A stretch of DNA of 10,689 nucleotides, from the UHGV virus genome UHGV-0361391. The stretch is one strand, 5' to 3'. Source of the DNA: a virus. The number at the start of each line of letters is the position of its first letter. Position 1 is the first letter of the stretch. Positions 1-10,689 of this stretch are shown piece by piece. The notes beneath the pieces were generated by a model. It did not search any database. It had not been told where the DNA came from and saw only the letters and a list, made by a program, of their open reading frames with translations. Position numbers and translations under genes: made by a program.

Positions 1-141
1 TCTGATGATATTTTTCCCTGAAGGCTGCCGGGGAGATATTCCCCAGACGAGAGTGACGACGCTGACGATTGTAGAAAATCTCAATGTATTCCCGTATTAC
101 TGAGATGGCTTCATCCCGGTTATTAAAACGATAGTGGCTCA
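1..141 (-). mobile_element. IS3-family insertion sequence fragment: 3' part of transposase orfB (C-terminal region, continues past window start), separated from the rest of the gene by the inserted element
   Basis: Minus-strand translation of 141->1 reads SHYRFNNRDEAISVIREYIEIFYNRQRRHSRLGNISPAAFREKYHQ, matching the conserved C-terminal region of IS3-family (IS150-like) transposases (YIEIFYNRQRRHS...SP..F). It is in frame with the fragment at 10549-10689 once the insert is removed. Confidence 0.8.
138..141. repeat. Left copy of CTCA direct repeat flanking the inserted element (putative target-site duplication; 5 bp CTCAT/CTCAG if one mismatch is allowed)
   Basis: CTCA at 138-141 and again at 10549-10552, immediately outside the inferred element termini. 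In the IS reading frame both copies sit in the same codon phase (cTG AGt / aTG AGc). Confidence 0.5.
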
Positions 142-330
142 TGTAACCAGGTGAATCATTTGATACCGACAAGGGTTTTAGTGAAAGGAGGTGAAATCAC
201 CTGTAAGATGCTGAAATAAAACAGGTGATGTATACTTCGGACGGAAAACTCTTTTTGATACCGACTGCTCAACAAATAGTCAAAAGATCAAAAAACGGCG
301 ACACATTTGATACTGCTAATTTACCCTTAA
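142..330. repeat. Left end (attL-like) with three putative transposase-binding repeats
   Basis: TTTGATACCGAC at 159-170 and 254-265, TTTGATACTGCT at 306-317; these lie 17, 112 and 164 bp from the inferred terminus, resembling the Mu L1/L2/L3 layout. The same motif occurs in inverted orientation at the right end. Confidence 0.6.
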
Positions 331-497: not shown

Positions 498-1109
498 TTA
501 ACCAACAACATTTTTCTTTACTGTCACTGCCCCTGATTCCTGGGTGGCGTTATTGCTCGAGTTGTACTTCTCAATAACGCGCAAAATCTCTTTGTCTGTT
601 TCTTCACTTCCCGCCATTCCTATCTTTATTGCATTTTTTAGTACGGGACGTAATGGCAAGGCATCAATGATGCTTTCTACCGCATCCTGGCTGATTGTAG
701 ATGTATTCATTGCTGCCAGCCTGACAAGGTTGTTAGTACCTTCTCGCCTGATGAATGTAAGGATTAATTGCTTCTCTTGGGGGCTTAGAGAGCTAAGCGC
801 CTGATCAATACCCGAACCTGAATCGCAATTTTTTTCGATTTTTCCGCATTCATCTTCGTTCTTGCCTGTGGCCAACCATTCGAGTGAACAATTACAGGCT
901 TTAGCTATTAAGGCCAGTTTATCCAAAGGAGGGAAGTTTTTCCCCTTCCTGTAATTTCTTACTGTGGCTTCAGATAGTCCACAAAGGGTCGCCAGTTCGA
1001 CGTTTGTCATGTTTCCCATAGCCATAGCTAAGCGTTCTGAAAATCGGTTTATTCCTTCCATATCAATAAACCGTTCCGCACTGGATACGGTTTTTTCTGC
1101 CTTATCCAT
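498..1109 (-). CDS. XRE-family helix-turn-helix transcriptional repressor (prophage immunity repressor candidate, Mu c position)
   Basis: 203-aa ORF with an N-terminal HTH_XRE-like segment (NMTNVELATLCGLSEATVRNYRKGKNFPPLDKLALIAKACNCSLEWL). It is transcribed toward the left end, divergent from ner, as Mu c is. RBS AGGGGG lies 4 nt upstream of the ATG. Confidence 0.8.
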   Translation of the reverse strand: MDKAEKTVSSAERFIDMEGINRFSERLAMAMGNMTNVELATLCGLSEATVRNYRKGKNFPPLDKLALIAKACNCSLEWLATGKNEDECGKIEKNCDSGSGIDQALSSLSPQEKQLILTFIRREGTNNLVRLAAMNTSTISQDAVESIIDALPLRPVLKNAIKIGMAGSEETDKEILRVIEKYNSSNNATQESGAVTVKKNVVG

Positions 1110-1542: not shown

Positions 1543-2967
1543 ATGTGGGTAACAGCAAAAGAATGTGTTGGTCTTCCTGATTTACCAATGATGGAACATA
1601 ACATTCGCCATCGACTCACAAAAGCAGCTGCGGGAAATGCAGCCATGTTACGCAAACGTAAGGGGACAAAAGCAATCGAATTTAATATCGATTGTTTGCC
1701 TTCTGGCGCGCAACAAGTATTGCGTGAACGTTATGCCCTTCAACTGATGACGCAAAAAGCTGATGAATCACCGGCTCCGGTGGTGACAAAGGCCAGACGC
1801 TCATCTGCCGTGGTTGATGCGGTGGAGGCATATCGCGGATCACCACAACTGATGCTCGAACGCCTCAATGCCCTGACTGAAAACCAGCGCCAGGTGGCTG
1901 ATGCACGAATCGCGATCGTCAGCGAAGTTCTGAAAGTCGCGCAACAACCTGGTTTCAGCTGTGCGAAGGCTATCCGGTTTATCGTTGACAACCTGGCACG
2001 TTCGCAACTGAACGAGCGCATTGTGGCAATGGTTGAGACGGCGAACGCCAAAAAGGGAAACAGCCGTGCGTTGAGTGAAATCACGCTGAAACGCTGGATT
2101 GCAGCCTTTAACAAGGCGCAGAACGCCGCTGAACGCCTGCTTTTGCTGGCACCTGGTAAGCGCCAGGAAATAAAAGCCGAAGATATTAACTGGCTGCCCG
2201 AATTTCTGGCGCAGTATCGCCAGTCAAACGGCCGACCAATGACCGAGGCTTACGAGGATTTTGTCGCTGAATGGCAGTACCGGCACGCTGATGAGCCTTA
2301 TATGCTCGATATCATGCCGTCTTATGACACCATTCGCCGCGCAATGAAGAAACTGCCGGAAGTGGTGAAACAAAAAGGCCGGGTGACCGGCAGTGAATAC
2401 CGCCAGCTTGAGGGATTCACGCGCCGCGACTGGTCCAGAATGCCGGTGAATTATGTCTGGATTGGTGGCTCCGGGGATGCACAGATGGTCAGCAATATGT
2501 TTGTGGCAAAAACCGGCTCTGTCGGTGCACAGGCGGATTACAGTGGCCCGGCCTGGTATCTGCTCGACTGCTCCCGCGCGGTAAAACCGCTGATTTACCA
2601 GGATCGCCGCAAGGCCGAACTGGTTGCCCAGACAAAAGTCGATGAAGGCCGTGCGTTTACTGATAACGAGTTTGTGTTCGGTGCTTCCGCCCGTCGCAAT
2701 GTGGGCTACGGCTTCTGGCAGATGGCCTACATGATGCAGTCACCGCTGACGCTGGATGCGCTGTGGCACGGCTGGTCAGCCATGCGTGACTTTAAGGCTG
2801 ACGGTGGCCGCAAACTCGGCATCAAACCCACCCATATTGTTGTCCCCACTTCGCTGGAAAAACAGGCGGTGCAGCTGCTGGAGCGCGAGCTGTTCGCGGA
2901 CGGTAACGCCACAGTCTCTAACGAGATGAAGGGCAAGCTGGAGCTGGTTGTCGCGGATTATCTGTAA
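1543..2967 (+). CDS. Chimeric ORF: Mu transposase A-like N-terminal DNA-binding region (about aa 1-310) fused in frame to a Mu gpT-like major head subunit C-terminal region; transposase catalytic core absent
   Basis: The N-terminus MWVTAKECVGLPDLP...GTKAIEFNIDCLP parallels MuA MELWVSPKECANLPGLP...GKAIEYNANSLP (domain I-alpha), and similarity continues to about NYVWIGGSGD (compare MuA QWINGDGY around D269). The remainder (WYLLDCSRAVKPLIYQ...RRNVGYGFWQMAYMM...IVVPTSLEKQAVQLL) does not resemble the MuA core and sits immediately upstream of the DUF1320 gene, where Mu encodes T. Confidence 0.6.
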   Translation: MWVTAKECVGLPDLPMMEHNIRHRLTKAAAGNAAMLRKRKGTKAIEFNIDCLPSGAQQVLRERYALQLMTQKADESPAPVVTKARRSSAVVDAVEAYRGSPQLMLERLNALTENQRQVADARIAIVSEVLKVAQQPGFSCAKAIRFIVDNLARSQLNERIVAMVETANAKKGNSRALSEITLKRWIAAFNKAQNAAERLLLLAPGKRQEIKAEDINWLPEFLAQYRQSNGRPMTEAYEDFVAEWQYRHADEPYMLDIMPSYDTIRRAMKKLPEVVKQKGRVTGSEYRQLEGFTRRDWSRMPVNYVWIGGSGDAQMVSNMFVAKTGSVGAQADYSGPAWYLLDCSRAVKPLIYQDRRKAELVAQTKVDEGRAFTDNEFVFGASARRNVGYGFWQMAYMMQSPLTLDALWHGWSAMRDFKADGGRKLGIKPTHIVVPTSLEKQAVQLLERELFADGNATVSNEMKGKLELVVADYL

Positions 2968-3786: not shown

Positions 3787-4347
3787 TTACGGAAACCGAA
3801 CAGGCATATATCACCCGTATTCGTGAGTATTTCGGGAATGAACTGGTGTCTGTTGACACACATCCCGGCGACTGGAGCGACAGCGTGCTGCGCACCATGC
3901 TGATTAACGCCCCGGCTATCCTGGACGGGTAAACAGCTGCTTGCCGAGCGTTTCCCTGACACGTCGCGCCTGCTGCTGGAAGACTGGGAGCGTTATCTCG
4001 GGCTTCCCGAGTGTGATATGGCCGGAGCCACCCTCACGGAGCGACAGCGTTATGCCGGCAATAAATACCGGATGAAGCCCTCGCTGAACCGTGAATTTTA
4101 TATCCGGTTTGCGGCGGAGTTTGGTTATCAGATTGACATTCAGCCCTCACCGGATTCGCAGTGGGTCAGTATTGTCACGATTAACAGTGAAACCGGCTAC
4201 CGGAATATGAATGTGCTGGATGATATTCTCACGCCGCTGCGTATTTATGAAGGCAGTGCGCTGGAATGTATTCTGAACCGTTATAAGCCTGCATGGCAGA
4301 CGTTTATTTACGTTTATGCAAACAGCCATGAAGAGGAGACTATTTAA
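3783..4347 (+). pseudogene. DUF2313-family phage tail protein (Mu gp48-like), disrupted by a +1 frameshift near 3928-3930
   Basis: Frame 0 gives MITETEQ...INAPAILDG then a stop at 3930-3932; frame +1, open from 3904, continues KQLLAERFPDTSRLLLEDWERYLGLPE... to 4347 and carries the conserved DUF2313 FPDT...L..WER.LGLP motif. Removing one G from the GGG run would give a single ~188-aa protein. Confidence 0.65.
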
Positions 4348-5258
4348 TGTTTCATGTTGATAATAATTCCGGCGTGGCGAATATGCCTGCGCTGGCACCG
4401 GCGCAGAGTAATACCACCACCTGGTTTACCGAAGGTGACGGACAAAAAGGTATCAGCTGGATTGGTCAGGACTGGCTGAATATTCTCCAGGCCGAACTGC
4501 TGAATATTCTGGCTGAAGCCAGTATTCAGCCGGATAAGGCGCAGTTAAACCAGCTTACGCTGTCCATTAAAGCCATTATCGCTGCGAATGCCTTTTCCCG
4601 GAAAAATAACCTGAAAGAAATTGCTGATGCCGGTGCGGAGGCCCAGCGTCTGGCCCGTGGTTATCTTGGTCTGGGGACGCTTGCCACAAAAAACAGTCTT
4701 GGTCCCGGTGACGTTAATGCCCTGGCGAAGGATCAGAATCTCGCCGACCTGGAGAATAAGGGAACCGCCCGTAATAATCTGGATGTTTACAGCAAAAGCG
4801 AAGGTGATAACCGTTACCTGCGCAGGGAGCAGAACGGCGCAGACATTCCGGATAAAGGGGCTTTTATCGATAACGTCGGTTTACGGGAAACGGTGAATAA
4901 GGCGGCGAATGCTCTGCCATCGGACGGCACCGCCGTTGCCGCGAATAAACTCTCCACCCCAAGAAATATTAATGGCGTTCCTTTTGACGGGACGCAGGAC
5001 ATATACATTACCTCCGGTATGACTGAAGCTACTGCTGATAACAAATACGTTAGCAACGTTCAGCTTGGTGCCCAGAGTTACCATTCACCCGGAGGTAATG
5101 AAATGTCCTGGAGTTATGGTGCACCTTCTGGTTGTATGCTTTCAGGTATTAACGTGCAGGATACCGGGAAAAGTTCAGCCGATAATATCGGAGGCGTTTA
5201 TTACCGTCCGGTGCAGATATATATCGGTAATGCCTGGCGCACAGTTTCATCCGTCTGA
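4347..5258 (+). CDS. Phage tail fibre protein (Mu S / Stf-like)
   Basis: 303-aa ORF with the conserved tail-fibre N-terminus MFHVDNNSGVANMP...WLN.LQAE shared by Mu S and E. coli Stf proteins. GAGGAG RBS; TAATG overlap with the upstream DUF2313 gene. Confidence 0.85.
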   Translation: MFHVDNNSGVANMPALAPAQSNTTTWFTEGDGQKGISWIGQDWLNILQAELLNILAEASIQPDKAQLNQLTLSIKAIIAANAFSRKNNLKEIADAGAEAQRLARGYLGLGTLATKNSLGPGDVNALAKDQNLADLENKGTARNNLDVYSKSEGDNRYLRREQNGADIPDKGAFIDNVGLRETVNKAANALPSDGTAVAANKLSTPRNINGVPFDGTQDIYITSGMTEATADNKYVSNVQLGAQSYHSPGGNEMSWSYGAPSGCMLSGINVQDTGKSSADNIGGVYYRPVQIYIGNAWRTVSSV

Positions 5259-5266
5259 TTAAAGGA

Positions 5267-5289
5267 AAAGGGTGCGATAAGCACCCTTT
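5267..5289. terminator. Perfect hairpin between convergent tail fibre and tail-fibre assembly genes (likely bidirectional terminator)
   Basis: AAAGGGTGC-gataa-GCACCCTTT: 9-bp perfect stem with a 5-nt loop, flanked by A/T-rich sequence on both sides, between the stop at 5256-5258 and the minus-strand stop at 5293-5295. Confidence 0.55.
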
Positions 5290-5292
5290 ATG

Positions 5293-5865
5293 TTATTCAG
5301 GCTTCTCCGGCCATTTAATGGCGTCAAATTCAGCTTTGTTTTTAATCGCTGGTAGTTCCATTTTTTTCACCTGACTGATGTATTTCATCCATCGTGTAAG
5401 CGCAGCTCTGTTTTCATCACTAATCGTGCCCAGCTGTAACTCAGTTCTCCAGTCATTAATCTTTTCATATGCCTGATTAAGATATGACTGGCGCAGTGCT
5501 TCCGCTTTTTTGGTATAGTTAACCGGGAGTTGTGAGATGACACCATTATCAAACTTCCAGTTACCTGAAATATCAGTACCTTCAGGTAATTCGTCTGTCT
5601 CAACAACGGAAAAACCCGCAGGATACAGCGCCGAAGCATCCTGTGATATTGAGCAGATAACACCGCTGTCAGGGGTTATGCAAAGTTTATATTTTTTGGT
5701 GAATAATGGCAGGGACTCATAGAAATCCTTACCATCTTCACTTTGAAAATACTGTACATCATTACCAAAGGGTTTTTGTTCCGGGTAATATCGTTTAACA
5801 TTAATCAGTTGCATAAACATCACCATGTAAATCAATGATAAAAACAGGAATAATAATATCGCCAT
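5293..5865 (-). CDS. Tail fibre assembly protein (Tfa / Mu U-like); true start probably the internal ATG near 5814
   Basis: Conserved Tfa features: DASALYPAGFSVVE, ISDENRAALTRWMKYISQV, C-terminal WPEKPE. The first 17 residues of the longest ORF are hydrophobic and likely not translated; MQLINVKRYY looks like the real N-terminus. Confidence 0.85.
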   Translation of the reverse strand: MAILLFLFLSLIYMVMFMQLINVKRYYPEQKPFGNDVQYFQSEDGKDFYESLPLFTKKYKLCITPDSGVICSISQDASALYPAGFSVVETDELPEGTDISGNWKFDNGVISQLPVNYTKKAEALRQSYLNQAYEKINDWRTELQLGTISDENRAALTRWMKYISQVKKMELPAIKNKAEFDAIKWPEKPE

Positions 5866-6118
5866 ATACAGGCAAGGGGTTTCTGAAATAACGCATATTT
5901 TCAGATGCTGACCGCAGCGTCATGAATCGTTAAATCAATTATAAGCCGGTAATATGCGGTTATCGTATTGGCCTGTCCATCCTTTGTCGTTATGTTCCTG
6001 CCTAACCGGCTCCGTCACAAAAAGTACCGTGATGCTTTTTTTGAATTTCCGCAAAACACATATTTATCAGCGGTTGTTATTCTGACTCTGTTTAATTCAG
6101 AAACAGGCAGAAAAGACG

Positions 6119-8173
6119 ATGTCAGACTCCAAGTGGAAAATGCTCTCCGCCATGCCCGGAGAGTTTTCAGTCAAGGTTGCCGGTGGCACGGTGGCATTTA
6201 TTGAAAGCCCTTTCCGCCCTTCGGGTAATAAAGGGGGGATCACCTTCGCAGACTGCGTGATCCGCTTCAGCACGAAAGAGCCATTATGGGTAATGCCGGT
6301 ATCCGGTAATCCCAGTGCAGAAATCACCAGTTCAGGCGTGACTGGCATCATTCCAATCACATCTGACGTGGCCGGAACGCTCACGCCCTCCGACTGGAAT
6401 GCACCGGATAACGCCGGGCCTTCCGGTAGCACGAATGGCAGCAGTTCAGAGCCGGAATATTACTTTGTTGTCATTCTCGCGGGTCAGTCAAATGGCATGG
6501 CCTACGGCGAGGGGCTGCCGTTACCGGATTCGTTTGACCGCCCGGACCCACGCATTAAGCAACTGGCACGCCGCAGTACGGTAACGCCCAACGGTACGTC
6601 GTGTACATACAACGACATCATTCCGGCAGACCACTGCCTGCATGATGTTCAGGATATGAGCGGGATAAACCACCCGAAAGCTGATCTGGCAAAAGGCCAG
6701 TACGGGACTGTCGGTCAGGGGTTGCATATTGCCAAAAAACTGCTTCCCTATATCCCACAGAATGCGGGGATACTTCTGGTGCCCTGTTGTCGTGGCGGGT
6801 CAGCATTCACCACTGGAGCCGACGGCTCATTCAGTGAGGCCAGCGGTGCTTCCGCTGATTCTTCACGCTGGGGGGCCGGTAAACCTCTGTATCAGGACCT
6901 GGTAAGCCGCACCAAAGTCGCGCTGGCGAAAAACCCGAAAAACAAACTTCTGGCTGTGGTCTGGATGCAGGGAGAGGCAGACCTTGCCTCAGGAAGCCAG
7001 CAGCATAATAGTTTATTCACGGCCATGGTTCAGCAGTTCAGAACTGACCTGGCTCCGCTTGCTGCGCAGTGCGTGAGTGGAAATGCCACCACGGTGCCGT
7101 GGATTTGCGGTGATACCACGTATTACTGGAAAAACGCTGGCACCGATAAATATGAGGCAGTATACGGTGGCTACAAAGGCAAGGAAGCACAGAAAATTTT
7201 CTTTGTACCGTTCCTGACGGATGAGAATGGACAGAGCACGCCAACGAATGCTCCGGCGGAAGACCCGGATATTGTGGCTGTCGGGTATTACGGTGCAGCA
7301 TCCCGAACCCAGGGCAGTTTTGTTTCGACACAGCGTGACAGCCATTTCAGCTCATGGGCACGCAGGGGCGTCATTTCAGACCGTCTGGCCTCAGCTATTA
7401 TGCTCCATGCAGGGCGCACGGCTGAACTGATGCGCGGGCAGACCGTGACACCACCGGATGAGAAGCCGTCACCTGATACACCATCAAAACCGTCCACGCC
7501 ACCCGCAGACACCACGACGATGAGTACGCTATTTGCTTACCGGGCATCTGAGTCTGAAGGACGGTTGACACCACAGGGTTGGGCTGCCGGAGGTGGCAAG
7601 GCTCAAATCGTGGATGATGCCGGAGCCAGCGGGGGTAAGGCAATGAAACTGACCAAGGAAACAGGAAGAGCCCCCTGGTACCTTGAGCATGATGCTGGTA
7701 ATGGTGCGGACCTGCTGGGTAAAGGTGGTCTTGTCAGTTGTCGTTTTAAACTCGATGGCGCGCTTACGGCTAATCAGTACGCACTGGCGCTGTACTGGCC
7801 GGTTTCTGCCCTGCCGCAAGGGGTTACTCTGGAAGGAAATGCCGGTCATAACCTGCTGGCATCGTTCTACGTACAGAGCGATGCCACAGACCTTAACGTG
7901 ATGTATCACAAAGGAAACACGGCGCAGAACACGAAGCTGGGGTCATTCGGCGCATTTAATAACGAATGGCATACGCTGGGCTTCCGTTTTGCCGGTAACA
8001 ACAGTATTGAGGTGACGCCGGTCATTGATGGTAAGGACGGGACACCATTCATGCTGTCGCAGTCTCCGGTCGGCACGTTTACGGCAGACAAGTTGCGCGT
8101 GACCGATATCACTAAAAATGCGACTTACCCGGTACTGATTGACAGTATCGTGGTGGAAGTGAATAACGCGTAA
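6119..8173 (+). CDS. SASA-family carbohydrate esterase (sialate O-acetylesterase-like, NanS-p-like) with Pro/Thr/Ser-rich linker and C-terminal lectin-like beta-sandwich domain
   Basis: 684-aa ORF. The central region carries the SASA/SGNH-type GQSNG motif (FVVILAGQSNGMAYGEG) and a later VVWMQGEAD block. A linker PPDEKPSPDTPSKPSTPPADTTT precedes a ~190-aa C-terminal domain with lectin/LamG-like character. The gene lies downstream of the tail fibre module, as prophage nanS-p genes do. Confidence 0.75.
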   Translation: MSDSKWKMLSAMPGEFSVKVAGGTVAFIESPFRPSGNKGGITFADCVIRFSTKEPLWVMPVSGNPSAEITSSGVTGIIPITSDVAGTLTPSDWNAPDNAGPSGSTNGSSSEPEYYFVVILAGQSNGMAYGEGLPLPDSFDRPDPRIKQLARRSTVTPNGTSCTYNDIIPADHCLHDVQDMSGINHPKADLAKGQYGTVGQGLHIAKKLLPYIPQNAGILLVPCCRGGSAFTTGADGSFSEASGASADSSRWGAGKPLYQDLVSRTKVALAKNPKNKLLAVVWMQGEADLASGSQQHNSLFTAMVQQFRTDLAPLAAQCVSGNATTVPWICGDTTYYWKNAGTDKYEAVYGGYKGKEAQKIFFVPFLTDENGQSTPTNAPAEDPDIVAVGYYGAASRTQGSFVSTQRDSHFSSWARRGVISDRLASAIMLHAGRTAELMRGQTVTPPDEKPSPDTPSKPSTPPADTTTMSTLFAYRASESEGRLTPQGWAAGGGKAQIVDDAGASGGKAMKLTKETGRAPWYLEHDAGNGADLLGKGGLVSCRFKLDGALTANQYALALYWPVSALPQGVTLEGNAGHNLLASFYVQSDATDLNVMYHKGNTAQNTKLGSFGAFNNEWHTLGFRFAGNNSIEVTPVIDGKDGTPFMLSQSPVGTFTADKLRVTDITKNATYPVLIDSIVVEVNNA

Positions 8174-8180
8174 GCAGGAT

Positions 8181-8223
8181 AAAAAAATCCCGCCGGTCAA
8201 AGAGCCATTTGTTGACTGGCGGG
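8181..8223 (-). terminator. Hairpin with adjacent A7/T7 tract, oriented as an intrinsic terminator for leftward transcription
   Basis: CCCGCCGGTCAA (8189-8200) pairs with TTGACTGGCGGG (8212-8223), 12 bp with one G-U pair. AAAAAAA at 8181-8187 gives a U-tract only on the minus-strand transcript. Confidence 0.4.
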
Positions 8224-8338
8224 TGATATTCCAAACCCATTAAGGAAAGCTACAACCTCTGACAAAGAAGACCATTATGTACGCGGTTACTTTTTAGCTG
8301 AAAACTGTTTCTGTAGTCAATATCAAAGGTAAGGTTAT

Positions 8339-8521
8339 ATGACATTTGTTCATACGATGCTGCTTTATTTCTGCACTGTGGTCAGTGCGTTATATCTGGT
8401 GAGCGGTGGTTATAAGGCCATCAGAAATTATGTTCGCCGCAAAATTGATGACGCAGCAGCTGAAAAGCTCAGTAAAACAGCGCAGGCAACTCCGCTCCCA
8501 AAAGACCCGACCCAGCCCTGA
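8339..8521 (+). CDS. Hypothetical small membrane protein (single predicted TM helix)
   Basis: 60-aa ORF with an AAGG RBS; hydrophobic N-terminal segment FVHTMLLYFCTVVSALYLVSGGY followed by a charged tail. Lies in an AT-rich islet. Confidence 0.4.
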   Translation: MTFVHTMLLYFCTVVSALYLVSGGYKAIRNYVRRKIDDAAAEKLSKTAQATPLPKDPTQP

Positions 8522-8556
8522 TTGCAGGGCTGTATTCCCACATAAGGAGGATATAC

Positions 8557-8811
8557 ATGCCAGAGATTAAAGGCACCGTCACTGAAGTCCTGGTAAAACA
8601 GGCACTGTATTCCGGTGAAGTAAATAAATTACTGAAAGCGCAGGTCCGCAAGGATTTTGAGGCACAAATCGACACTTACGTTGATGAAGTGCTGGCAAAA
8701 CTTATTGGGCCAGCAGTTGCGGCCAGTGATGCTGATAATGAGCCGAAAACCGACGCGCAGCCAGAGCAACCAGACCCGGCTCAGCCCGGAACTGACAGTA
8801 CCATGATGTAA
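8557..8811 (+). CDS. Hypothetical protein (helical N-terminus, acidic proline-rich C-terminus)
   Basis: 84-aa ORF preceded by a strong AAGGAGG RBS with 7-nt spacing, followed by a hairpin (AAACCGG...CCGGTTT, 8818-8843). Confidence 0.5.
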   Translation: MPEIKGTVTEVLVKQALYSGEVNKLLKAQVRKDFEAQIDTYVDEVLAKLIGPAVAASDADNEPKTDAQPEQPDPAQPGTDSTMM

Positions 8812-8978
8812 CAATACAAACCGGTGGTGTCCTCTGCCGGTTTGACACTAATGAAAACATCTTTGCCGCTATCCAGCCATATGTAATCGCTGGATAGTAT
8901 TTCGTATTCAGAAATATAGCTGCTTATGGAGCAGTCAATCCTGCTTCCCCATCCGGGCAGGCAAATGAACCGGTATCA

Positions 8979-9272
8979 TTAGTCCGATTCACGCTTTTGT
9001 AGAATCGTTCCCAGAATGCTATACAGCTCATTAGCCTGTTGCTCCATCATTGAGACGGAGGCTATACGGTGCAAAGTGATTTCAGGAGGTGGCACACCTC
9101 CATCTTCTTGCTGTGGAGGAAAAACATAAGATTTAATAAAAAAGTTGAAGCATATGAACTCTCCCGCACTCGAACTGTATTTGCAGGCATCTGAATAATC
9201 GGAAAAATAATCATTATAGATTTCCGCATTTTCAATCATTTTTCGATTTCTCGTCGTTACATGATTGTCCAT
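8979..9272 (-). CDS. Hypothetical protein, unknown function
   Basis: 97-aa minus-strand ORF with an AGAGG RBS 5 nt upstream of the ATG; AT-rich codon usage differs from the surrounding phage genes; divergent from com-mom. Confidence 0.45.
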   Translation of the reverse strand: MDNHVTTRNRKMIENAEIYNDYFSDYSDACKYSSSAGEFICFNFFIKSYVFPPQQEDGGVPPPEITLHRIASVSMMEQQANELYSILGTILQKRESD

Positions 9273-10548: not shown

Positions 10549-10552
10549 CTCA
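10549..10552. repeat. Right copy of CTCA direct repeat flanking the inserted element (putative target-site duplication)
   Basis: Identical to 138-141 and in the same codon phase of the interrupted IS transposase. Confidence 0.5.
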
Positions 10553-10689
10553 GGCTCTCATTTTTCAGCGTTCCCCAGAAGCTTTCCATCGGAGCGTTGT
10601 CGTAACAGTTACCTTTACGCGACATTGATGTTTTCAGACCAAACTGCTCCTGTATGACCCGGTAATCGTATGCGCAGTACTGTGAACCT
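10549..10689 (-). mobile_element. IS3-family insertion sequence fragment: internal part of transposase orfB (DDE domain region), truncated by the insertion; gene continues past window end
   Basis: Minus-strand translation of 10688->10549 reads GSQYCAYDYRVIQEQFGLKTSMSRKGNCYDNAPMESFWGTLKNESLS, the conserved IS3-family catalytic-domain block (SMSRKGNC.DNAPMESFFGTLK). The frame then runs into element sequence and stops. Confidence 0.8.

What the first reader, a model, noticed from the sequence alone, without database searches (positions are those of the whole stretch)
4347..6118. Convergent tail fibre and tail-fibre assembly genes look like the relic of an invertible host-range segment
The tail fibre gene (plus strand) ends at 5258 and the Tfa gene lies on the opposite strand, ending at 5293, with a perfect bidirectional hairpin between them. 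In Mu, P1 and e14 this convergent layout arises from the invertible segment (S-U / U'-S') controlled by a Gin/Pin-type invertase. Here the expected second variable fibre part upstream of the minus-strand tfa (5866-6118) is non-coding and no invertase gene is present. The fibre is therefore locked in one orientation and its cognate assembly chaperone may be the wrong one.
Basis: partly seen in the sequence, partly recalled or inferred. Interest (0 to 1): 0.45.

Follow-up and report, generated by a model that had tools for sequence, protein, structure and literature searches.

The report
Frozen remnant of phage host-range switch
This stretch is what is left of a flip-flop DNA switch that lets a Mu-like E. 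coli virus alternate between two tail-fibre tips; an old 0.9-kb deletion removed the second tip, one recombination site and the flipping enzyme. This is ordinary prophage decay, with one small open question about how the single fibre-folding helper gene is used.

Summary
Fibre gene 4347-5258 (+) and tfa 5293-5814 (-) converge on a perfect 9-bp hairpin (5267-5289); 5866-6118 has no intact gene; there is no invertase.

The "relic of an invertible segment" reading is right and can now be shown directly.
- The fibre gene holds one Mu-type crossover site (4864-4889, 22/26 identical to Mu gixL).
- Position 5966|5967 is a deletion junction. It joins the last 21 codons of the alternative tip Sv' to the last 21 codons of a gin invertase gene.
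- About 226 of 5,426 complete E. coli genomes carry the intact module (gixL-Sv-hairpin-tfa(rev)-Sv'(rev)-gixR-gin), assembled in either orientation.
- Eight genomes carry the identical scar, several in full-length prophages.

- The convergent tfa is native. This Sp18-type module has only one tfa, not Mu's U plus U', so the deletion did not create a mismatch.
- The proposed refuting result, an intact phage with this layout and no invertase, does exist, but those phages carry the same scar.

The window's prophage is otherwise gutted: a transposase-head fusion, and the sheath-to-baseplate genes deleted. Verdict: a known kind of system in decayed form; low to moderate interest.

The parts
4347..4863 (+). 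Constant part (Sc) of the tail-fibre gene, lying outside the former invertible segment
   Evidence: Essentially identical to the invertible relative L002 up to the crossover site, then diverges. Residues 1-198 align to Mu S 1-191, E=1e-43.
4864..4889 (+). Left crossover site (gixL-like), TTATCGATAACG-TC-GGTTTACGGGAA. It is the only such site left in the window.
   Evidence: A unique match, with 0 expected in shuffles. 22/26 identical to Mu gixL TTATCCAAAACCTCGGTTTACAGGAA, read from the Mu genome, at the equivalent position of the homologous fibre. No second site is found.
4890..5258 (+). Variable fibre tip Sv, the tip that is now permanently expressed
   Evidence: Divergence from relatives begins here. 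It is 53-57% identical to the alternative Sv' tips of relatives and shares their C-terminal motif. The tip aligns to Mu S 434-503 and to P2-like H and Rac-type fibre tips at 57-63%.
5267..5289 (.). Bidirectional terminator-like hairpin between Sv and tfa (9-bp perfect stem, 5-nt loop)
   Evidence: z = -4.5 and -5.2. Conserved in the invertible relatives STEC299 and 2012C-4502.
5293..5814 (-). tfa, the single tail-fibre assembly chaperone of the module (173 aa). The longest ORF would run to 5865.
   Evidence: Pfam Caudo_TAP and PHROG 136. Mu U, 5yvq_B, E=4e-16. 86-93% identical to the Tfa of three relatives, invertible and locked. dN/dS 0.10-0.20 in every pair where dS could be estimated.
5815..5900 (-). 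Spacer between the former Sv' stop codon and the tfa start
   Evidence: Aligns to STEC299 L003 3501-3586. Not conserved between subtypes of the family.
5901..5966 (-). 3' remnant of the alternative fibre tip Sv' (last 21 codons plus stop, decayed)
   Evidence: Aligns to the 3' end of STEC299 Sv' (L003 3587-3658). It translates as TITAYYRLIIDLTIHDAAVSI*, compared with ...TVTAYYRPIQYLINGSWRTAGST*.
5967..6032 (+). 3' remnant of the gin-type invertase gene (last 21 codons plus stop, with an internal stop codon). The deletion junction is 5966|5967.
   Evidence: Aligns to STEC299 gin 3' end, L003 4530-4589. It translates as IGLSILCRYVPA*PAPSQKVP*, compared with ...IGLSTLYRYFPA. tblastn of Gin hits only this fragment. 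The same junction is found in 8 complete genomes.
6033..6118 (+). Original intergenic region between gin and the downstream esterase gene
   Evidence: Collinear and near-identical with invertible relatives.

Best explanation
Region 4347-6118 is the surviving left part of a Gin/gix invertible host-range module of an Sp18-type, Mu-family prophage. It is frozen in the orientation that expresses tip Sv.

In intact relatives the module reads: Sc - gixL - Sv - hairpin - tfa (reverse) - Sv' (reverse) - gixR - gin. It is about 1.4 kb between crossover sites. Gin flips it, so the constant fibre N-terminus is fused either to Sv, with tfa antisense behind the hairpin, or to Sv', with tfa co-transcribed downstream.

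In the window's lineage one illegitimate deletion of about 0.87 kb, with 1 nt of microhomology, removed most of Sv', gixR, the gin promoter and 5' region, and gin codons 1 to about 169. What remains is one crossover site, the last 21 codons of Sv' and the last 21 codons of gin. With a single site and no invertase the fibre can no longer switch, even if an invertase were supplied in trans.

Shown: the anatomy, the junction, the homologies, the orientation polymorphism in relatives, and the spread of the scar. Inferred: the single Tfa serves both homologous tips, so locked phages remain fibre-competent.

In this particular window the question is moot. The prophage has also lost most of the transposase, the B gene, the lysis genes, most head genes, and the sheath, tube, tape-measure and baseplate genes.
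For: - The gixL-like site at 4864-4889 is unique in the window and 22/26 identical to Mu gixL, with the same central TC.
- Window and invertible relative are about 100% identical up to that site and diverge immediately after it.
- The junction 5966|5967 maps to STEC299 L003 3658 and 4529/4530, which are the 3' ends of Sv' and of gin.
- The relatives' recombinase is 76% identical to Mu Gin and sits in the same position and strand as in Mu.
- STEC299 has a 172-nt inverted repeat flanking 1,053 nt; the window has none.
- Flipping STEC299 in silico gives an in-frame 295-aa fibre.
- Both orientations exist in assemblies that share the identical Tfa and recombinase accessions: L011 against L012. The counts are 146 against 27 genomes.
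- The intact right boundary occurs in 226 of 5,426 genomes. The identical scar occurs in 8.
- Asadulghani et al. [quoted passage not shown]
Against: - Nothing contradicts the relic reading.
- The functional inference is weaker. tfa lies antisense behind a terminator. No promoter conserved across subtypes was found upstream of it.
- The purifying selection seen on tfa could have been imported by recombination with invertible relatives. Locked lineages carry two different Sv types and do not cluster in tfa.
Confidence: 0.93

Rival explanations
1. The convergent fibre/tfa layout is an ancestral, never-invertible arrangement of this phage group. There is no relic.
For: Full-length prophages with exactly this layout and no invertase exist: JE86-ST02 in two copies, and CI5.
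Against: Those prophages carry the same junction, with the Sv' and gin 3' fragments. A Mu-type crossover site sits in the fibre gene. The invertible form outnumbers the locked form by 226 genomes to 8.
Confidence: 0.02
2. The deletion was made by the invertase itself, as site-specific resolution between crossover sites in direct orientation.
For: Gin-family enzymes can delete between directly repeated sites (established knowledge; not tested here).
Against: The junction is not at a gix site. gixL is intact at 4864-4889. The end points lie in the 3' end of Sv' and the 3' end of gin, and share only 1 nt.
Confidence: 0.02
3. Chaperone mismatch. The retained Tfa is cognate only to the lost Sv' tip, so the locked Sv fibre is either unchaperoned or folds unaided.
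For: In the intact module tfa is co-transcribed only with Sv'. In the Sv-on state it is antisense behind a hairpin. The N-terminal, fibre-binding part of Tfa lies next to Sv', and its sequence type travels with the Sv' remnant in CI5 and M3, which combine a B-type Sv with an A-type tfa 5' end. The domain roles come from North et al. 2019, as summarised in PMC9608196.
Against: Sv and Sv' are homologous tips, 53-57% identical, with the same terminal motif. Related tips in Rac-SA53 and P2-like phages always have a downstream Tfa, and the Rac-SA53 one is 47% identical to this Tfa. tfa is intact in all locked copies, with dN/dS about 0.1. Locked full-length prophages sit at different chromosomal sites, and twice in one genome. 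Most assemblies of the invertible form are in the Sv-on state, 146 against 27.
Confidence: 0.2

Closest known systems
Phage Mu G segment with the Gin invertase (S-U / U'-S')
   Same: A homologous fibre N-terminus, with the crossover site at the equivalent codon position and 22/26 identical. gin lies directly right of the segment on the same strand, and the relatives' enzyme is 76% identical to Mu Gin. The fibre tip and Tfa are homologous to Mu S and U. com-mom lie downstream.
   Different: The segment is about 1.4 kb rather than 3 kb. The fibre is 303 aa rather than 504 aa. There is one tfa rather than two, so inversion also flips the chaperone between sense and antisense. About 3.3 kb of cargo (esterase, DUF1378, DUF826) sits between gin and com. 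In the window itself gixR, most of Sv' and gin are deleted.
Invertible host-specificity region of the Mu-like prophage Sp18 of E. coli O157:H7 Sakai
   Same: The same family by synteny and sequence. O157:H7 genomes carry the fibre - tfa(rev) - Sv'(rev) - recombinase - DUF6645 layout. The literature notes an invertible region with genes distinct from Mu's (PMC2669165).
   Different: The window is a deletion derivative lacking the switch. Its Sv, tfa and Sv' remnant belong to a different subtype, closest to STEC299. I did not read the Sakai record itself, so equating L011 with Sp18 is an inference.
P1 C segment with Cin, and e14 P segment with Pin
   Same: The same class of serine-invertase fibre switches with 26-bp crossover sites (established knowledge).
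   Different: Not compared by sequence here. By recollection these carry two chaperone genes.
Rac-type stf-tfa and P2-type H-G fibre and chaperone pairs (not invertible)
   Same: The fibre tip is 57-63% identical to these tips. The Rac-SA53 Tfa is 47% identical to the window's Tfa.
   Different: In those phages the chaperone lies directly downstream on the same strand.

Membership tests
Gin/Hin/Cin/Pin DNA-inversion system (functional member) | Serine-recombinase invertase gene adjacent to the segment | tested here: not met
   The window keeps only 66 nt (the last 21 codons, with an internal stop) at 5967-6032. Relatives have a 188-190 aa enzyme 76% identical to Mu Gin.
Gin/Hin/Cin/Pin DNA-inversion system (functional member) | Two 26-bp crossover sites in inverted orientation with matching central dinucleotides | tested here: not met
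   The window has one site only (4864-4889) and no inverted repeat. Relatives have gixL with centre TC and gixR with centre GA, inside a 172-nt inverted repeat.
Gin/Hin/Cin/Pin DNA-inversion system (functional member) | Both orientations of the segment occur | tested here: inconclusive
   The window itself is a single sequence. In the family both orientations are assembled, 146 against 27 genomes, and the pair L011/L012 shares identical Tfa and recombinase accessions.
Gin/Hin/Cin/Pin DNA-inversion system (functional member) | Fis-dependent recombinational enhancer (sis) in the 5' part of the invertase gene | not tested
   That region is deleted in the window. It was not analysed in relatives.
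Relic of a Mu-type invertible fibre segment | Crossover site inside the fibre gene at the constant/variable boundary | tested here: met
   Identity to L002 is about 100% up to 4889 and drops after it. The site is 22/26 identical to Mu gixL, at the homologous position.
Relic of a Mu-type invertible fibre segment | Recognisable fragments of the lost components at a defined junction, shared with no intact copy | tested here: met
   The Sv' 3' end and the gin 3' end meet at 5966|5967. The identical junction is present in 8 genomes.
Tail fibre assembly protein (Pfam PF02413 Caudo_TAP; Mu U type) | Profile match above the curated cut-off, and homology to the solved Mu U | tested here: met
   74.1 bits against a cut-off of 22.1. 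PHROG 136 E=4e-55. 5yvq_B E=4e-16.
Mu S-type tail fibre | Homology to both the N-terminal part and the C-terminal tip of Mu S | tested here: met
   5yvq_A E=9.5e-49. The two matched stretches are 1-198 and 228-302.

The most novel reading that the evidence does not exclude
The Sp18-type module is a one-chaperone inversion switch. Flipping changes the fibre tip and at the same time moves the only tfa between the late operon (sense) and an antisense position behind a terminator. Most assemblies (146 against 27) and all locked phages sit in the antisense state, and locked phages still spread. It follows that either tfa has an inversion-independent route to expression, or the Sv tip folds without it.

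In the locked lineage the deletion junction itself creates a sigma-70-like promoter on the minus strand: TGGACA (from the gin remnant), 17 nt, CATATT (from the Sv' remnant), at 5979-5951 and about 137 nt upstream of tfa. It is conserved in all four locked copies. The deletion may therefore have locked the fibre and at the same time given the chaperone its own promoter.
Probability: 0.12. Interest if true: 0.55.

Novelty: new member of a known kind. Interest (0 to 1): 0.3.

Why it matters
It shows in detail how a phage host-range switch is lost: one 0.87-kb illegitimate deletion takes out the second tip, one crossover site and the invertase, and leaves datable fragments. The locked derivative is not a dead end. 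It persists in full-length prophages at several chromosomal sites. For annotation, convergent fibre and tfa genes in Mu-like E. coli prophages should be read as one state of a switch or its fossil, and the 26-bp site inside the fibre gene is the marker to look for. The only open biological point is how a module with a single chaperone serves two tips. That bears on the design of engineered fibres and on the general rule that Tfa proteins pair with their fibres.

Tried and rejected
- A chimeric 'flipped left junction' query built from STEC299 did not distinguish the two orientations, because Sv and Sv' stay similar beyond the inverted repeat. I replaced it with right-boundary queries from real flipped and unflipped loci.
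- The global MAFFT alignment of the window against L002 misplaced the gin remnant. The junction was fixed by local alignments against STEC299.
- I looked for a conserved tfa promoter in the Sv'-tfa spacer. The spacer is not conserved between subtypes, and the promoter scan finds no more sites than shuffles do, 3 against 3.7. No claim is made from this.
- The minus-strand ORF at 8979-9272 was considered as a possible invertase remnant. It has no Pfam or PHROG hit and is a conserved hypothetical gene in relatives.
- dN/dS between locked lineages cannot prove selection after the deletion, because tfa does not cluster by locked versus invertible status, which is evidence of recombination.
- Several loci were not available to the Python sandbox, so some comparisons were done with the alignment tools instead.
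They were not needed.

Full report
**Context.** The window is a heavily deleted Mu-family prophage.
- It encodes a c-type repressor (498-1109, minus strand).
- ORF 1543-2967 fuses the N-terminal ~308 residues of a Mu-type transposase in frame to the C-terminal ~160 residues of the major head protein gpT.
- It then has a gp36-like gene, a C-terminal fragment of baseplate gp48/YmfQ (4018-4347), the tail fibre (4347-5258), a minus-strand tfa, a SASA+DUF6645 esterase (6119-8173) and com/mom (to 10420).
- Against the full-length relative in E. coli JE86-ST02, the window matches only head-region bases 596-2048 and then 12001-18637 at 99.9% identity. About 10 kb covering sheath, tube, tape measure and baseplate is missing.

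**Observation.**
- The fibre ORF is full length for its family: PHROG 1833, E=1e-161, positions 1-322 of 322.
- The minus-strand gene is a Caudo_TAP chaperone, at 74.1 bits against a cut-off of 22.1.
- The two stop codons are 34 nt apart and flank a perfect 9-bp/5-nt hairpin at 5267-5289. It folds far better than shuffles on both strands, z = -4.5 and -5.2.
- No invertase gene exists in the window.

**Evidence that this is a relic of an inversion switch.**
- *A crossover site survives.* TTATCGATAACGTCGGTTTACGGGAA at 4864-4889 is unique in the window, with 0 matches in 200 shuffles. It is 22/26 identical to Mu gixL, which I read from the Mu genome as TTATCCAAAACCTCGGTTTACAGGAA, with the same central TC. 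It sits at the homologous position of a fibre whose first 198 residues align to Mu S (5yvq_A, E=1e-43 for that stretch).
- *The site marks the constant/variable boundary.* The window and the relative in strain 600029 are essentially identical up to the site and diverge immediately after it.
- *Relatives carry the complete module.* In 600029, STEC299 and 96_1414B the order is fibre (+), hairpin, tfa (-), a 5'-truncated 'phage tail protein' (-), gixR (TTCCCGTAAACCGAGGTTTTCAGGAA), and a 188-190 aa recombinase (+), followed by the same esterase. The recombinase is 76% identical to Mu Gin. It lies right of the segment on the plus strand, exactly as in Mu.
- *The relatives' segment is structurally competent to flip.* STEC299 has a 172-nt, 92% inverted repeat around 1,053 nt, while the window has no inverted repeat. 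Flipping STEC299 in silico produces an in-frame 295-aa fibre.
- *Inversion happens in nature.* Strain 2012C-4502 is assembled in the flipped state: Sc-Sv', then tfa on the same strand, then Sv reversed next to the recombinase. Its Tfa and recombinase have the same protein accessions as in 96_1414B, which is in the other state. Right-boundary queries count 146 genomes with Sv' next to gin and 27 with Sv next to gin.

**The scar.** Local alignment to STEC299 places window bases up to 5966 on the 3' end of Sv' (L003 up to 3658). Bases from 5967 onwards fall on the 3' end of gin (L003 from 4530), with 1 nt of overlap. The 'non-coding' stretch therefore resolves into four pieces:

| Window coordinates | What it is |
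|---|---|
| 5815-5900 | Spacer between the Sv' stop and the tfa start |
| 5901-5966 (-) | Last 21 codons plus stop of Sv', decayed |
| 5967-6032 (+) | Last 21 codons plus stop of gin, with an internal stop |
| 6033-6118 | Original intergenic region between gin and the esterase gene |

About 871 bp are missing: most of Sv', gixR, the gin 5' region and about 169 gin codons. The junction is not at a gix site, so the deletion was illegitimate rather than made by the invertase.

**Distribution.**
- The intact right boundary occurs in 226 of 5,426 complete E. coli genomes.
- The identical junction occurs in 8, and was aligned base for base in four of them. These are JE86-ST02 and JE86-ST05, S1-CAM-01-A, a second IS1-truncated locus in 600029, M1/M3/M18 and CI5.
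- JE86-ST02 has two full-length copies encoding the same proteins. One splits flgK and the other lies next to citF. CI5 has one copy that interrupts a molybdopterin-binding xanthine dehydrogenase gene next to xdhB.
- Locked phages therefore remained mobile after the deletion.
Intact phages with this layout and no invertase exist, but they carry the same scar.

**The chaperone question.**
- Unlike Mu, which has S-U and U'-S', this module has one tfa, co-oriented with Sv'. The convergent layout is therefore native.
- Sv and Sv' are homologous tips, 53-57% identical, sharing the YYRPxQ...W terminus.
- The Sv tip aligns to the Mu S tip (434-503), and the Tfa aligns to Mu U, the two partners of the 5YVQ complex.
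- Similar tips in Rac-SA53 and a P2-like phage have a co-directional Tfa. The Rac-SA53 one is 47% identical to this Tfa.
- tfa is intact in all locked copies, and dN/dS is 0.10-0.20 in every pair where dS could be estimated, including locked against locked.
- These points favour one shared chaperone rather than a 'wrong' one.
- Expression from the antisense position is unexplained. No spacer element is conserved between subtypes, and promoter-like hits are no more frequent than chance.
- The selection signal may be imported by recombination. Locked copies carry two Sv types, and tfa does not cluster by locked versus invertible status.
- One promoter-like site (TGGACA, 17 nt, CATATT; 5979-5951, minus strand) straddles the junction and is conserved in all four locked copies. 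I record it only as a speculative lead.

**Verdict.** The relic interpretation is correct and now documented to the base. The chaperone-mismatch corollary is not supported, though it is not experimentally excluded. This is a decayed member of a known kind of system (Mu G/Gin type, Sp18 subtype). In this window it sits inside a prophage that can no longer build a tail, so interest is low to moderate.

Noticed in passing
window 1543-2967 (+): An in-frame fusion ORF of 474 aa. A Mu-type transposase N-terminus (DNA-binding domain, about residues 1-308) is joined to the C-terminal ~160 residues of major head protein gpT. This marks a large internal deletion covering the rest of A, B, the early, lysis and most head genes.
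   Followed up: partly
window ~3917-3920: A second internal deletion junction. The sequence jumps from the start of the gp37-like (DUF1834) gene to the last 109 codons of gp48/YmfQ. About 9.95 kb (sheath, tube, tape measure, baseplate) is missing relative to JE86-ST02 (L001 2048 to 12001).
   Followed up: partly
window 136-142 and 10552-10557; flanks 1-140 and 10558-10689: The ~10.4-kb element is bounded by a 5-bp direct repeat GGCTC, which fits a Mu-type target duplication. Joining the flanks gives an uninterrupted IS3-family transposase OrfB C-terminus on the minus strand. The Mu-like element therefore inserted into an insertion sequence and kept both ends despite its internal deletions.
   Followed up: partly
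window 6119-9272: Between the gin scar and com/mom lies about 3.3 kb of cargo typical of lambdoid and Stx prophages: a SASA+DUF6645 esterase (684 aa, PHROG 143), DUF1378, DUF826 and a minus-strand 86/97-aa ORF with no family hit. Mu has gin directly followed by com-mom.
   Followed up: no
L001 and L013 (JE86-ST02, NZ_AP022811.1 around 1410360-1448700); L004 (around 701100): JE86-ST02 carries two full-length copies of the locked phage encoding the same proteins. One splits flgK. The paper describing these O86 isolates reports them as non-motile (PMC7366661), which this insertion could explain. The lysozyme gene of the flgK copy is annotated as frameshifted.
   Followed up: partly
L011 compared with L012: Among O157-type members, assemblies favour the orientation in which tfa is antisense to the fibre, 146 genomes against 27.
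   Followed up: partly
window 5815-5865 (-): The longest tfa ORF adds a 17-residue hydrophobic leader (MAILLFLFLSLIYMVMF) upstream of the family-consensus start. It is in frame and conserved in STEC299 but absent from the other subtypes. It is probably not translated.
   Followed up: no
L007 (CI5) and L010 (M3) compared with the window: Locked prophages that share the identical deletion junction carry two different Sv tips: 303 aa in the window and JE86, 293 aa in CI5 and M3. The tips were therefore exchanged by recombination after the deletion, or the scar was.
   Followed up: partly
L013 2660-2739 and L007 4250-4329: RefSeq annotates a 'tRNA-OTHER' between the virion morphogenesis and head morphogenesis genes of the full-length relatives. 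That region is deleted from the window.
   Followed up: no
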